The notes: a model not told the origin generated them from the letters alone. A stretch of DNA of 27,206 bases from a virus (IMGVR_UViG_2563366822_000012:1-27206); one strand, 5' to 3'. Positions 1,009 through 4,683 are shown, numbered from the stretch's first letter. A program made the numbers and translations.

Positions 1009-1083
1009 GTCCTCTTAGTTAAATGGATATAACGAGCCCCTCCTAAGGGCTAATTGCAGGTTCGATTCCTGCAGGGGACACCA
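1009..1083 (+). tRNA. argW: tRNA-Arg (anticodon CCU); phage attachment target
   Basis: 75-nt sequence GTCCTCTTAGTTAAATGGATATAACGAGCCCCTCCTAAGGGCTAATTGCAGGTTCGATTCCTGCAGGGGACACCA: acceptor stem, D-arm, anticodon loop CT-CCT-AA, T-arm GGTTCGATTCC and 3' CCA are all visible; matches my memory of E. coli argW. Confidence 0.9.
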
Positions 1084-1244
1084 TTTATCAGTTCGCTCCC
1101 ATTCGTACCAGTCCGCAAAATCCCCTGAATATCAAGCCTTCCGTAGATTCACAGTTCGTCATGGTTCGCGTCAGATCGTTGACAGCCGCACTCCATGACG
1201 GGTAAAAAGTGGATAAAATAATTTTACCCACCGGATTTTTACCC

Positions 1245-2402
1245 ATGCTCACCGTTAAGCAGATTGAAGCAGCAAAGCCGAAAGAAAAACCATACCGCCT
1301 TCTCGATGGTAATGGCCTGTACCTTTATGTCCCTGTGTCAGGGAAAAAGGTATGGCAGCTTCGCTACAAGATTGACGGTAAGGAGAAAATCCTGACCGTC
1401 GGAAAATATCCGCTAATGACTTTGCAGGAGGCAAGAGATAAAGCATGGACCGCGAGGAAAGACATCTCGGTTGGCATCGATCCGGTAAAAGCGAAAAAGG
1501 CTTCGTCTAACAACAATTCCTTTAGTGCGATTTACAAGGAATGGTACGAGCACAAGAAGCAAGTCTGGTCAGTAGGCTATGCAACTGAACTTTCAAAAAT
1601 GTTTGATGACGACATTTTACCTATCATCGGCGGCCTTGAAATTCAGGATATTGAGCCGATGCAACTGCTGGAAGTAATCCGCAGATTTGAAGATCGCGGT
1701 GCAATGGAGCGAGCAAATAAAGCCCGCAGAAGATGCGGCGAGGTTTTCCGTTACGCTATTGTCACTGGTAGGGCTAAATATAATCCGGCACCTGACCTTG
1801 CTGACGCCATGAAGGGATACCGTAAGAAGAACTTCCCGTTCCTTCCTGCAGACCAGATCCCGGAATTCAACAAAGCACTGGCAACATTTTCAGGAAGTAT
1901 CGTATCGCTCATTGCCACCAAAGTTTTACGCTACACAGCCCTAAGAACGAAAGAGCTTCGTTCCATGCAATGGAAGAACGTCGATTTTGAAAACAGGATT
2001 ATCACTATCGACGCCAGTGTGATGAAGGGACGCAAGATTCATGTTGTCCCGATGTCGGACCAGGTGGTTGAACTTCTCACTACGCTAAGCTCCATCACCA
2101 AACCAGTATCAGAGTTTGTTTTTGCCGGGCGCAACGATAAGAAGAAGCCAATCTGCGAGAACGCGGTATTGCTTGTGATCAAACAAATCGGCTATGAGGG
2201 TCTGGAAAGCGGTCACGGATTCAGGCATGAATTCAGCACGATTATGAACGAGAACGAATGGCCTGCTGATGCTATTGAAGTGCAACTGGCACATGCCAAC
2301 GGCGGATCTGTGCGCGGGATTTACAACCATGCTCAGTATCTCGATAAGCGCAGAGAAATGATGCAATGGTGGGCGGATTGGATCGATGAAAAGGTGGTGT
2401 GA
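1245..2402 (+). CDS. intS: Phage integrase, tyrosine recombinase (P4-type), 385 aa
   Basis: Directly downstream of the tRNA. The ORF track begins at a GTG (1209), but ATG 1245 (MLTVKQIEAAKPKEKPYRLLDGNGLYLYV...) gives the canonical P4-type integrase N-terminus. The C-terminal part contains the expected catalytic-type residues (…HGFRHEF…, …RGIYNHAQYL…). Resembles CPS-53 IntS from memory. Confidence 0.9.
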   Translation: MLTVKQIEAAKPKEKPYRLLDGNGLYLYVPVSGKKVWQLRYKIDGKEKILTVGKYPLMTLQEARDKAWTARKDISVGIDPVKAKKASSNNNSFSAIYKEWYEHKKQVWSVGYATELSKMFDDDILPIIGGLEIQDIEPMQLLEVIRRFEDRGAMERANKARRRCGEVFRYAIVTGRAKYNPAPDLADAMKGYRKKNFPFLPADQIPEFNKALATFSGSIVSLIATKVLRYTALRTKELRSMQWKNVDFENRIITIDASVMKGRKIHVVPMSDQVVELLTTLSSITKPVSEFVFAGRNDKKKPICENAVLLVIKQIGYEGLESGHGFRHEFSTIMNENEWPADAIEVQLAHANGGSVRGIYNHAQYLDKRREMMQWWADWIDEKVV

Positions 2403-2595
2403 TCCACCTATATCGCCGTACAATTATCCAACTCACATAATATGGCGAGAGTAAAGCCTTTAGGTTGGTTGTTTTTTTGGGTTTATTCATATAATATTCT
2501 ATATGTACGACAATTAAATTTATCTAATATTTAATTGCAATTTAAAAAATAACAAACTCACATTATACACTATAAAACAACATAAGGATTATGAC

Positions 2596-3183
2596 ATGTT
2601 GGTAGATAAGATATTGCACAAAACTGGATTATTTGACTTTCTGGACAAAATTTTAATAACCCGTCCTTTCGCTATTGTATCCAATAACTGCTGGGGCTAT
2701 AGACTATATAAAAATATAGGGCTTGAATATAATACTCCCTTTATCGGCCTGTACATCACAGCATCTGATTTTGTTGAAATGTGTATTAATTTGGAGCATT
2801 TTTTATCAAGAGACATTGTTGAAAGCGATTTCATTAATACAGAGCATAATTTCCCCGTTGCATTTGTGGATGGAGTAAAAATATACTTTATGCATTATAA
2901 CTCAAGGGCAGAAGCCATGGATAAATGGAATAGAAGAATAAAAAGACTTCAATCTTTTATATCATCACATGGCCTTGATAGAGTTGTTTTTAAAATGTGT
3001 GATAGAGATGGAAGTTACATGGATGTAATGAAATTTAATGAGTTAAAAATAAAAAGAACGATATCTTTCACCTCGAAAGAAAACAAAGGACTCGTTGAGA
3101 GCAATGGTAATATTTACCCGGGAGATGTATTGTTCAACTTCAGACACAGATATTATCTCAAGTATATCAAAACATTTAGATAA
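2596..3183 (+). CDS. Hypothetical cytoplasmic protein, 195 aa; low-GC cargo gene; possible DUF1919-like polysaccharide-modification protein (tentative)
   Basis: ATG 2596 preceded by AAGGA about 9 nt upstream. Visibly AT-rich compared with neighbours, with an AT-rich upstream region 2460-2590. N-terminal motif FAIVSNNCWGYRLY resembles what I recall as the DUF1919 signature. No transmembrane segments. Confidence 0.7.
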   Translation: MLVDKILHKTGLFDFLDKILITRPFAIVSNNCWGYRLYKNIGLEYNTPFIGLYITASDFVEMCINLEHFLSRDIVESDFINTEHNFPVAFVDGVKIYFMHYNSRAEAMDKWNRRIKRLQSFISSHGLDRVVFKMCDRDGSYMDVMKFNELKIKRTISFTSKENKGLVESNGNIYPGDVLFNFRHRYYLKYIKTFR

Positions 3184-3584
3184 CCACTCGACAAGAATAT
3201 CTAAAGGAAATTATCAGTAGTATTAAAGATTTAGTGTCATTCAGGTAAAAGACTTAAAAAAGAATGACACTTGTCTCAATCCTTTAGTTTCGATAAAGCA
3301 ATCTGGTCCAACCTAACTCTCACGAGTAAAGATAGTATCTCGACACTATCGAGTCAGGTGTCTGGAAATTCAGAAAGATGACCAAAGCAAAATATGCCTT
3401 CCAGAATGTGAAGGCAGTCTATTGAAGCTACTTACTGATGAATATGCAAGAAAGATAGCCAATGGCACTTCAAAGCTGAAATTTAACATTGTCGTAATTA
3501 GTCATTTACTTTGAAGAATGACTGAATAATGTGATGAATCTGCAGAATTTTTAACGTGGCATAACATTCTGAATGCCTTCGATA

Positions 3585-3752
3585 TCAACTGGCTGCCACC
3601 TCCGGTGGAGGCGTAAATTCGCCGTTACTGTATGTATAGCCCTGCTGAATGTCAGCGGGGCATTCAACCCAGATTAACGAGGGATGAAATCTATCGGTCG
3701 GGTCAATATCAGTTAATTCCATTACCACATTGTTTTCAATTCGTGCCCACAT
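3585..3752 (-). CDS. Short ORF (55 aa) immediately downstream of the tail fibre gene; possible truncated tail-fibre assembly or accessory protein remnant
   Basis: ATG at 3752-3750 (MWARIENNVVMELTDIDPTDRFHPSLIWVECPADIQQGYTYSNGEFTPPPEVAAS), stop at 3587-3585. Below the ORF-track size cutoff. Call is positional only; related argW prophages carry a tfa pseudogene here. Confidence 0.3.
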   Translation of the reverse strand: MWARIENNVVMELTDIDPTDRFHPSLIWVECPADIQQGYTYSNGEFTPPPEVAAS

Positions 3753-3759
3753 AATTACC

Positions 3760-4683
3760 TCACCAATAAATAATCACAATCCCACTATATCCAGCACCGG
3801 TAACTCCGCCTGCCTTTTCCGTCGCTAACCCTGCACCACCGCCACCAGGGCCTTTTGCGCCTTTGGCAACATTCTCCGCTGAGCCTAAAACCTGTCCATT
3901 CCCGCCAGGACCGCCGCCACTACCTCCGACAGCCGAATTACCCCTTGATATCATTGATGCACCGGGAGAGCCAGGACCAAGAGACGTATTTATCTGTCCC
4001 CCAATACCTTCTCCCCCCGCTCCTCCGGATATCTGCCCGCCGCCATCCCCACCTGTTGCCGAGAGATATGTGCCAAAACTACTGGTTCCTCCCTGACGTC
4101 CGTTACTGGCTGACGTATTTTGACCTGTTCCGCCAGAGCCGACAGTGATTGTGACGGTGCTGATACCAGTTAAGTCAATAACGGATTCACTTACTCCGCC
4201 ACCGCCACCACCACCGCCGCCGGCAGGGTTCGTTGTGTTTATTGCGGGATAACCGCCAGACCCGCCACCGCCGATAACCTTCACCCTGACGCGTCGGCCC
4301 TTTTTCACTATATCGGGGACATTCCATGTGCTGACGCCAGCTTTATCAAATACAACACAATTCTGAGCGCCGAATGTCGATTCTCCCAAACCAAGGTTTT
4401 CGAGAGCTGTTTTCACCGTGCCATCCGATTTGATATCGCTAAATGGATTTTTGCGGCTTAACAGCAGAGCACGAAGCGCGGTAAGCAGCTGGTCGTGCCG
4501 CTCCTTCTCCAGGCTGGCACCGGATGCCTCCACCACGCTGCAAAGCTCCTCCTGCAACATGTCAAAGTAGTCATCATCCAGATCGGTGGCAGGCGTGCCA
4601 GTCTGGGGGTTACCACGGGTAAAACCGTTCTTACCCGCGCCGAACTTATCCTTCTGCGCGGTTTTCGTGTCTATACGATGCAT
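3760..4683 (-). CDS. Tail fibre protein with conserved N-terminal fibre domain and glycine-rich low-complexity C-terminal region, 307 aa
   Basis: N-terminus [10 protein letters not shown]...[26 protein letters not shown] resembles the conserved N-domain of enterobacterial side tail fibres. The C-terminal two-thirds is poly-Gly/Ser rich (GGGGGGGGG runs). Last gene of the tail operon. Confidence 0.8.

What the first reader, a model, noticed from the sequence alone, without database searches (positions are those of the whole stretch)
2403..3584. Low-GC cargo gene beside the integrase, in the slot where argW prophages carry gtr genes
Between the integrase and the distal end of the tail operon lies a ~1.2 kb AT-rich segment with one 195-aa gene (good RBS, curved AT-rich upstream region typical of silenced horizontally acquired genes). 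In related argW/thrW prophages of E. coli, Shigella and Salmonella this position holds the gtrABC O-antigen glucosylation cassette. The protein is soluble, and its N-terminal motif IVSNNCWGYRLY resembles what I remember as the DUF1919 signature, a family found in polysaccharide biosynthesis loci. Hypothesis: a single-gene surface-polysaccharide modification module; an alternative is an abortive-infection or defence gene, since this junction is also a defence hot spot.
Basis: partly seen in the sequence, partly recalled or inferred. Interest (0 to 1): 0.62.

Follow-up and report, generated by a model that had tools for sequence, protein, structure and literature searches.

The report
Prophage gene for probable cell-surface sugar modification
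A rare E. coli prophage carries, where related prophages keep their O-antigen-changing genes, one small soluble enzyme of an uncharacterised family (DUF1919) that most likely alters the host's surface sugars, which would make E. coli a simple system for finding out what this family does.

Summary
Window 2403-3584 is a 32% GC island in a 52% GC window. It holds one real gene, 2596-3183 (+), 195 aa, preceded by an AAGGA ribosome-binding site, between an IntS-type integrase at argW and the end of a tail-fibre operon.

No member of the family has been characterised, but context points to surface glycans:
- Distant homologues are fused to GT2 glycosyltransferases or a Wzx flippase.
- Others lie in O-antigen, exopolysaccharide and LPS-core loci.
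- The closest relatives (40-53% identity, five enterobacterial genera) are nearly all low-GC genes convergent with phage tail-fibre genes. Some sit beside LPS glycosyltransferases or an Oac-like O-antigen acetylase.

Best reading: a lysogenic-conversion gene whose cytoplasmic enzyme, probably with a Cys32/His100 centre, modifies LPS core or the O-unit and changes the phage receptor. The chemistry is unknown and no defence-system match was found.

RefSeq already annotates the gene as a DUF1919 protein. Its role as a phage conversion enzyme appears undescribed. Only 8 of 5426 complete E. coli genomes carry it.

The parts
1009..1083 (+). tRNA-Arg(CCU), argW: the prophage integration site
   Evidence: ARAGORN. 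Same order as yfdC-argW-intS in K-12 and ECC-1470.
1209..2402 (+). IntS-type tyrosine integrase
   Evidence: Pfam Phage_integrase 1.6e-39, Phage_int_M and Arm-DNA-bind_3. Homology with intS of other E. coli ends at about window 2409.
2403..2595 (+). AT-rich (27% GC) upstream region of the cargo gene, with RBS AAGGA at 2584-2588 and a TATAAT at 2490-2495
   Evidence: Sequence read directly. GC. No consensus promoter at the scan's threshold.
2596..3183 (+). Cargo gene: 195-aa soluble DUF1919 protein. Candidate catalytic residues are C32 and H100, with a basic cluster K110/R113/R114/R117/K133.
3233..3271 (+). Perfect 10-bp inverted repeat (19-nt loop), 50 nt after the stop codon. Possible 3' stem-loop of the cargo transcript; no T-run follows.
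   Evidence: the repeat finder I15. RNA fold of 3184-3300 gives -22.3 kcal/mol, z -2.3.
3395..3416 (-). Terminator-like hairpin followed by TATTTTGCTT on the - strand. Likely end of the tail operon transcript, so 3417-3584 would be its 3' UTR.
   Evidence: scan_promoters_terminators; this is a consensus match only.
3585..3752 (-). 55-aa ORF just downstream of the tail-fibre gene. Probable small tail-fibre accessory or assembly protein.
   Evidence: ORF list. Weak PHROG tail hit, E 0.0098. The frame stays open in a variant with 17 nt / 9 aa differences.
3760..4683 (-). 307-aa tail fibre: conserved N-terminal part plus a glycine-rich C-terminal tip that belongs to the same variable block as the cargo
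   Evidence: Pfam Gly_rich_2 5.9e-11. PHROG tail fibre families. Homology with common E. coli prophages resumes only at about window 4381.

Best explanation
The segment is a prophage 'moron': an independently acquired, low-GC, convergently oriented gene at the integrase/tail-fibre junction of an argW-integrated myovirus-type prophage. It most likely serves lysogenic conversion of the cell surface.

Its product is a soluble, cytoplasmic DUF1919 enzyme. I infer that it acts at the inner face of the membrane on a glycan intermediate. The most likely targets are the LPS core being built on lipid A, or the undecaprenyl-linked O-unit; other surface polysaccharides are less likely. It would add or change a substituent, so that the finished LPS no longer matches what this phage, or related phages with similar tail-fibre tips, recognise.

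The catalytic centre is probably the invariant Cys32 (at the N-terminus of the helix after strand 1) together with His100. The conserved K110/R113/R114/R117/K133 cluster would bind a phosphorylated or anionic donor or acceptor.

Shown: family membership, fold, genomic position, and recurrent association with tail fibres and glycan genes. Inferred: the substrate, the chemistry, expression in the lysogen, and the effect on phage adsorption.

For: 2. Same slot as gtrA/B/S in K-12 CPS-53. Integrase homology ends at about 2409 and tail homology resumes at about 4381, so the cargo travels with the tail-fibre tip.

3. Family-level link to glycan assembly.
- GT2-DUF1919 fusions in 7 of 15 long homologues scanned. 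There are also two Glyco_tranf_2_5-DUF1919 fusions, one Wzx-DUF1919 fusion and one FrhB/4Fe-4S-DUF1919 fusion.
- A 42%-identical homologue heads a Wzx/EpsG/GT cluster.
- A Sphaerotilus homologue abuts the GT2 gene that precedes it, inside a Wzx/Wzy cluster.
- Among 127 immediate neighbours at 67 loci: GT2 16, Kdo/WaaP-type LPS kinase 11, GT4 5.

4. The Enterobacterales clade closest to the query.
- Prophage, convergent with tail-fibre genes: Xenorhabdus (with GT8 and GT4), Providencia, a metagenomic contig at 50% identity (tail fibre assembly protein plus tail fibre), Arsenophonus (DXD glycosyltransferase + DUF1919 facing Caudo_TAP and tail fibres), an unnamed Enterobacteriaceae genome and viral contigs (Mu Gp48, Gp10_C).
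- One of these viral contigs has an Oac-like O-antigen acetylase on the other side (PHROG 3333, E 1.3e-68).
- In the IMG/VR viral contigs the gene is 3-20 GC points below its locus.
- Chromosomal members lie by waaA, a DXD glycosyltransferase and DegT (Pectobacterium), by a Kdo-hydroxylase fragment and GT25, or in a Proteus Wzx/LicD/CDP-ribitol cluster.

5. Precedent. NeuO, a single soluble enzyme on the argW prophage CUS-3, acetylates the K1 capsule and protects against K1 phages (PMC9659370).

6. Weak hint on chemistry. In L. johnsonii FI9785 the only non-glycosyltransferase accessory gene of the eps cluster is DUF1919, and its EPS carry O-acetyl and phosphoglycerol groups (PMC3609815, PMC3814790).
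Against: - No DUF1919 protein has a demonstrated activity.
- Some family members are orphans with no glycan context: Marinobacter, a Cryomorphaceae genome, Edwardsiella, and the Flavobacteriaceae RuvX-DUF1919-Def synteny.
- No consensus promoter was found for the gene, so expression in the lysogen is unproven.
- Known phage O-antigen modifiers (Gtr, Oac) are membrane proteins acting after export. A soluble enzyme would have to act earlier, which is plausible but unshown.
- The apparent association of carriers with one rare O-antigen cluster is confounded by clonality.
Confidence: 0.55

Rival explanations
1. A defence or abortive-infection gene that does not act through surface glycans, for example a toxin or effector triggered by superinfecting phage. 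It would sit in the integrase-proximal defence hot spot.
For: The position next to the integrase and the low GC are typical of defence cargo. The Providencia homologue lies in an island with McrBC, BrxR/WYL and a Piwi-like gene.
Against: There is no PADLOC hit. It is a single small gene with no partner. The wider family is embedded in or fused to glycan-assembly enzymes. Phage-borne relatives are paired with LPS glycosyltransferases or Oac rather than defence genes.
Confidence: 0.07
2. An enzyme that serves the phage's own lytic cycle rather than the lysogen. Examples would be a Cys-His hydrolase (esterase or amidase) that trims a substituent from nascent glycan or from a virion component, or one that modifies the tail fibre.
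For: The gene always lies next to the tail-fibre genes. The invariant Cys/His pair would suit a hydrolase. There are weak Foldseek matches to giant-virus proteins labelled papain-like cysteine peptidase (E 4.3e-4, TM 0.41-0.45).
Against: The gene is convergent to the tail operon, not part of it, and has foreign GC. Chromosomal relatives sit in biosynthetic LPS and EPS loci with no phage present. No Pfam-level link to a peptidase family was found.
Confidence: 0.12
3. A silent or decaying passenger with no present function in E. coli, carried along by recombination at the tail-fibre end.
For: It is rare (8 of 5426 complete genomes, essentially one lineage). No consensus promoter was found. One carrier has an IS1 inserted in the segment.
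Against: The reading frame is intact with all invariant residues. The exact protein occurs on 472 contigs. The gene differs by one synonymous base from the copy in the IMG/VR prophage contig L098, while the adjacent tail-fibre gene has diverged by 11%. The same arrangement recurs in five genera.
Confidence: 0.1

Closest known systems
Pfam DUF1919 (PF08942) / CAC2185-like, represented by PDB 2G6T from Clostridium acetobutylicum
   Different: The window protein is the bare ~195-aa catalytic domain. It lacks the ~90-residue C2185-like N-terminal domain of 2G6T. It belongs to a phage-borne enterobacterial clade rather than a chromosomal EPS locus. The family has no assigned activity.
gtrABC (gtrA/gtrB/gtrS) O-antigen glucosylation cassettes of CPS-53, P22 and Shigella Sf phages
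   Same: Same genomic slot directly after the argW integrase. Same presumed biological role of receptor and serotype conversion by a temperate phage.
   Different: gtr is three genes encoding membrane proteins that act via Und-P-glucose in the periplasm. Here there is one soluble protein with no GT2, GtrA or transmembrane features. If it is a converter, the mechanism is different.
NeuO of prophage CUS-3 (argW), the K1 capsule O-acetyltransferase
   Same: A single soluble enzyme on an argW-integrated prophage that decorates a surface polysaccharide and affects phage sensitivity (PMC9659370).
   Different: NeuO is a hexapeptide-repeat acetyltransferase with known chemistry and phase variation. 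The window protein has no hexapeptide repeats and an unrelated fold.
Oac-type phage O-antigen acetylases (Acyl_transf_3; Sf6 Oac and relatives)
   Same: Single-gene phage conversion modules at the integrase/tail junction. One DUF1919 phage contig carries such a gene right beside DUF1919.
   Different: Oac is a polytopic membrane protein. DUF1919 is soluble and unrelated in sequence. Their co-occurrence argues that they are not simple functional substitutes.

Membership tests
Pfam DUF1919 (PF08942) | Score above the curated gathering threshold of the family HMM | tested here: met
   115.2 bits against a cut-off of 25, E 3.5e-33, residues 18-164.
Pfam DUF1919 (PF08942) | Conserved core residues of the family | tested here: met
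   C32, W33, Y38, P48, F98, H100, W111, R114 and R117 are invariant in 79 homologues and all present in the query.
Pfam DUF1919 (PF08942) | CAC2185-like fold of the only solved member (2G6T) | tested here: met
Pfam DUF1919 (PF08942) | A defined biochemical activity | not testable with these tools
   None is known. Only three papers mention the family, all as annotation.
gtrABC glucosylation cassette | GtrA-type small membrane flippase, GT2 bactoprenol glucosyltransferase and a polytopic serotype-specific transferase | tested here: not met
   One ORF only, with no GT2 or GtrA hit and no transmembrane segment.
Acyl_transf_3 O-antigen acetylases (Oac/OafA) | Polytopic membrane AT3 domain (PF01757) | tested here: not met
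   No Pfam hit at E<=1 other than DUF1919. Maximum 19-residue hydropathy is 1.15.
Hexapeptide-repeat acetyltransferases (NeuO, WcaB/F type) | Left-handed beta-helix hexapeptide repeats (PF00132) | tested here: not met
   No Hexapep hit. The model is an alpha/beta sandwich.
SGNH/GDSL esterase-acyltransferases | SGNH fold with Ser-His(-Asp) blocks I-V | tested here: not met
Known anti-phage defence systems (PADLOC-DB 2.0) | Match to any defence-system protein model | tested here: not met
   0 families at E<=1.
Prophage lysogenic-conversion moron (functional class) | Foreign composition, own orientation, and location at the prophage end next to integrase and tail fibre | tested here: met
   GC 0.32 against 0.52. 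Convergent with the tail operon. Lies between int and the tail fibre. The pattern recurs in relatives.
Prophage lysogenic-conversion moron (functional class) | Expression in the lysogen and a change of host surface or phage sensitivity | not testable with these tools
   Needs RNA or protein detection, LPS chemistry and adsorption assays.

The most novel reading that the evidence does not exclude
DUF1919 is a previously unrecognised class of soluble, cytoplasmic glycan-decorating enzyme with a Cys-His centre on a fold of its own. Temperate phages of Enterobacterales have recruited it as a one-gene serotype or receptor-conversion module that acts on LPS core or the O-unit before export. That route differs mechanistically from the membrane-bound Gtr and Oac systems. 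The E. coli prophage gene would then be the tractable entry point for deorphanising a family of more than 2,000 sequence clusters found in LPS, O-antigen, capsule and EPS loci from Firmicutes to Bacteroidota.
Probability: 0.4. Interest if true: 0.65.

Novelty: new variant of a known kind. Interest (0 to 1): 0.5.

Why it matters
Phage-encoded surface conversion shapes serotype, phage host range and vaccine or phage-therapy escape. The known modules are Gtr cassettes, membrane acetylases and a few soluble acetyltransferases.

A DUF1919 converter would add a new enzyme type to that list. It would also give the first functional handle on a widespread family. That family has 2,145 representative clusters at E<=1e-3 and sits unexplained in many LPS, capsule and EPS loci, including those of Actinobacillus pleuropneumoniae, lactobacilli and Pectobacterium.

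The E. coli gene is small, soluble and in a genetically easy host, so the hypothesis can be tested directly. If it has no effect on the surface, the finding reduces to an ordinary annotated DUF gene in a rare prophage.

Tried and rejected
- NCBIfam and PADLOC gave no hit. PHROGs gave only a chance-level hit at E 0.12.
- The AFDB50 fold library was unavailable.
- BFVD gave weak matches to giant-virus 'papain-like cysteine peptidase' proteins (TM 0.41-0.45). I looked for a sequence-level link by scanning all 79 aligned homologues against Pfam at E<=10. The 25 most-matched families listed (of 39 in all) showed no peptidase or DUF1796 family. This stays a lead.
- Rfam found nothing in 2300-3800.
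- The promoter scan found no + strand site.
- Literature searches for DUF1919, COG3955, 2G6T, CAC2185, HI1244, IPR015037, the RefSeq accession, DUF1796 and the serovar 17 capsule structure gave no functional data.
- I tested whether carriers share an O-antigen. Six of 8 carry a gene cluster present in only 12 of 5426 genomes (Fisher p 7e-16). However, a random 12-kb core region showed that 7 of the 8 carriers are each other's closest relatives. The association is therefore clonal and says nothing about the substrate.
- I considered a low-molecular-weight phosphatase-like C-X5-R loop and rejected it. The +6 position is an invariant Tyr, and no such fold match appeared.

Full report
**What is there**

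The window begins with yfdC (1-933), tRNA-Arg(CCU) argW (1009-1083) and an IntS-type tyrosine integrase (1209-2402). Between the integrase stop and the distal end of a minus-strand tail operon lies 2403-3584.

The segment's GC is 0.32, against 0.52 for the window, 0.47 for the integrase and 0.55 for the tail-fibre gene. It holds one substantial ORF, 2596-3183 (+), 195 aa. An AAGGA lies 7 nt before the ATG.

The rest is non-coding as far as I can tell:
- No Rfam match.
- A perfect 10-bp stem at 3233-3271, 50 nt after the stop codon.
- A terminator-like hairpin on the minus strand at 3416-3395, which probably ends the tail operon.

Downstream on the minus strand are a 55-aa ORF (3585-3752) and a 307-aa tail fibre with a glycine-rich tip (3760-4683). 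YmfQ and baseplate J genes follow.

**What the protein is**

The protein matches Pfam DUF1919 at E 3.5e-33, 115 bits against a cut-off of 25. NCBIfam, PADLOC and PHROGs add nothing.

The protein has no transmembrane segment. In the 79-sequence alignment C32, W33, Y38, P48, F98, H100, W111, R114 and R117 are invariant, and the E. coli protein keeps all of them. Ser29 is Ser, Thr or Ala across the family. Cys32 sits at the start of the helix after strand 1, so it is the better nucleophile candidate, with His100 as partner. K110, R113, R114, R117 and K133 form a conserved basic set. This reading of the active site is inference, because I could not inspect coordinates.

**Distribution in E. coli**

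The 1.2-kb segment occurs in 8 of 5426 complete genomes. It is always in this slot and is annotated 'DUF1919 domain-containing protein'. The exact protein is on 472 contigs, all E. coli.

K-12 has yfdG/yfdH/yfdI (gtrA/B/S) at the same place. Homology with common intS genes stops at about 2409. Homology with common prophage tails resumes only at about 4381, inside the tail-fibre gene. The variable block is therefore the cargo, the small ORF and the tail-fibre tip together.

Prophages with the same backbone at other sites end instead in a Pin-type invertase with alternative tail fibres.

**Evidence on function from relatives**

No paper assigns an activity to DUF1919. Context is informative, though.

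Fusions among the 15 long homologues scanned:
- seven are GT2-DUF1919;
- two are Glyco_tranf_2_5-DUF1919;
- one is Wzx flippase-DUF1919;
- one is FrhB/4Fe-4S-DUF1919;
- one is DUF1919-methyltransferase.

Chromosomal contexts:
- A 42%-identical homologue heads a Wzx/pyruvyltransferase/EpsG/glycosyltransferase cluster.
- A Sphaerotilus homologue abuts the GT2 gene that precedes it, within a Wzx/Wzy cluster.
- In a census of 127 immediate neighbours at 67 loci from species-representative genomes, the leading families were GT2 (16), RuvX (16), peptide deformylase (14), Sua5 (12), Kdo/WaaP-type LPS kinase (11) and GT4 (5).

About half of the loci therefore have a glycan or LPS gene next door. The rest fall mostly into two conserved Flavobacteriaceae syntenies, and true orphans exist.

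**The closest clade is phage-borne**

The relatives at 39-53% identity are all from Enterobacterales, and most are low-GC genes convergent with phage tail-fibre genes:
- Xenorhabdus poinarii: between P2-type tail fibres, a GT8 LPS glycosyltransferase and a GT4.
- Providencia: next to a Gp53-like tail-fibre fragment and integrase remnants.
- A metagenomic contig at 50% identity: facing a tail-fibre assembly protein and a tail fibre.
- Arsenophonus nasoniae: a DXD glycosyltransferase plus DUF1919 facing Caudo_TAP and two tail fibres.
- An unnamed Enterobacteriaceae genome and four IMG/VR contigs: facing tail-fibre genes, three of them in Mu-type (Gp48 / Gp10_C) tail modules.
- In one of those contigs, the gene on the other side is an Oac-like O-antigen acetylase (PHROG 3333, E 1.3e-68).

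Chromosomal members of the clade lie in these contexts:
- by waaA, a DXD glycosyltransferase and DegT in Pectobacterium;
- by a Kdo-hydroxylase fragment and GT25 in an uncultured Enterobacteriaceae genome;
- in a Proteus Wzx/LicD/CDP-ribitol cluster;
- as an orphan in Edwardsiella.

**Interpretation**

The recurrent position at the tail-fibre end, the foreign composition, the company of LPS-modifying genes and the family-wide ties to glycan assembly make a lysogenic-conversion role the best explanation.

The enzyme is soluble. Relatives also sit beside cytoplasmic LPS-core enzymes (WaaA, a KdoO fragment, Kdo/WaaP kinases, GT8, GT25). It therefore most likely acts at the cytoplasmic face, on the core or on the lipid-linked O-unit. 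Gtr and Oac, by contrast, act after export.

Myoviruses with Mu- or P2-type tail fibres commonly use LPS core as receptor (my own knowledge), which fits. NeuO on the argW prophage CUS-3 is a precedent for a one-gene soluble converter that protects against phage (PMC9659370).

The chemistry is open. The L. johnsonii eps cluster has DUF1919 as its only accessory gene, and its polymers carry O-acetyl and phosphoglycerol groups (PMC3609815, PMC3814790). That hints at transfer of a non-sugar substituent, but it is only a hint.

**Rivals**

- A non-glycan defence gene is unsupported: no PADLOC hit, although the Providencia copy lies in a defence island.
- A lytic-cycle hydrolase is possible, given the Cys/His pair and weak BFVD matches to 'papain-like cysteine peptidase' proteins. 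The gene's separate orientation and the biosynthetic contexts of chromosomal relatives argue against it, and no peptidase family appeared among the families listed in a relaxed Pfam scan.
- A silent passenger is unlikely. The gene differs by one synonymous base from the copy in the IMG/VR prophage contig L098, while the adjacent tail-fibre gene differs by 11%.

**A test that failed to inform**

Six of the 8 carriers share an O-antigen cluster found in only 12 of 5426 genomes (Fisher p 7e-16). However, a random core region shows that 7 of the 8 carriers are each other's nearest relatives. The association is clonal and cannot identify the substrate.

**Verdict**

The gene is already annotated as a DUF1919 protein. 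What appears new is the recognition of a phage-borne DUF1919 clade occupying the conversion slot. I rate it a new variant of a known kind of system, of moderate interest, and directly testable in E. coli.

Noticed in passing
window 2403-4683, compared with L098 (an IMG/VR copy of the same E. coli prophage): Mosaic boundary near 3600. The cargo segment differs at 2 of 1182 bases (99.8% identical). The adjacent 55-aa ORF differs at 17 of 168 bases, and the tail-fibre gene is only 88.6% identical. The cargo is thus far more conserved than its tail-fibre neighbour, or has spread recently across tail-fibre variants.
   Followed up: partly
window 3585-3752 (-): A 55-aa ORF just after the tail-fibre gene is not annotated in the RefSeq record of ECC-1470. 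It stays open in a variant with 17 nt / 9 aa changes. Probably a small tail-fibre accessory protein; the only hit is a weak PHROG match (E 0.0098).
   Followed up: partly
L096 (NZ_CM192846.1) and L097 (NZ_CP147084.1): Prophages with about 90% of the same structural backbone, integrated elsewhere, end in a Pin/Gin-type recombinase with opposed tail-fibre and assembly genes (an invertible host-range switch). The window has a fixed tip plus DUF1919 plus integrase instead.
   Followed up: partly
NZ_CP062871.1 (hit H7): One of the eight carriers has an IS1B element inserted within the 1.2-kb cargo segment. I did not determine whether it disrupts the gene.
   Followed up: no
L111:25312-31495 (ECC-1470 O-antigen cluster): A rare six-gene O-antigen cluster (GT25, GT2, another glycosyltransferase and three hypothetical proteins) occurs in 12 of 5426 genomes, 6 of them DUF1919 carriers. 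Carriers proved to be one lineage, so this is clonal co-inheritance. Two carriers have switched O-antigen cluster but kept the prophage.
   Followed up: yes
L037, L043, L053, L067 and others; L040, L047, L050, L058 and others: Two conserved Flavobacteriaceae syntenies emerged. One is RuvX-DUF1919-peptide deformylase. The other is Sua5(-)-DUF1919-Kdo/WaaP-type LPS kinase. DUF1919 there looks like a core-genome gene, in the second case next to an LPS inner-core enzyme.
   Followed up: partly
P0168, P0195, P0146: Unusual fusions: 4Fe-4S + FrhB/FdhB-like domain fused to DUF1919, Wzx flippase fused to DUF1919, and DUF1919 fused to a SAM methyltransferase. FrhB-like proteins usually accompany polysaccharide pyruvyltransferases (my own knowledge), which might bear on the chemistry.
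   Followed up: no
BFVD hits L7Y610 and others; L109 (GVMAG viral contig): The model weakly resembles giant-virus proteins labelled 'papain-like cysteine peptidase' and part of a Pyramimonas orientalis virus 'glycosyltransferase'. A giant-virus metagenome contig encodes a 31%-identical DUF1919 relative. This is a possible superfamily link with eukaryotic-virus glycan machinery.
   Followed up: partly
L106:902-2053 (-): An Oac-like O-antigen acetylase (PHROG 3333, E 1.3e-68) sits immediately beside DUF1919 in one Mu-like phage contig, forming a two-gene conversion module.
   Followed up: partly
L004 (Providencia sp. PROV152): The DUF1919 copy lies in a degraded island that also holds McrBC, BrxR/WYL regulators, a PAAR protein and a Piwi-like gene next to a SMEK-domain protein. 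This is a dense defence island that might repay separate study.
   Followed up: no
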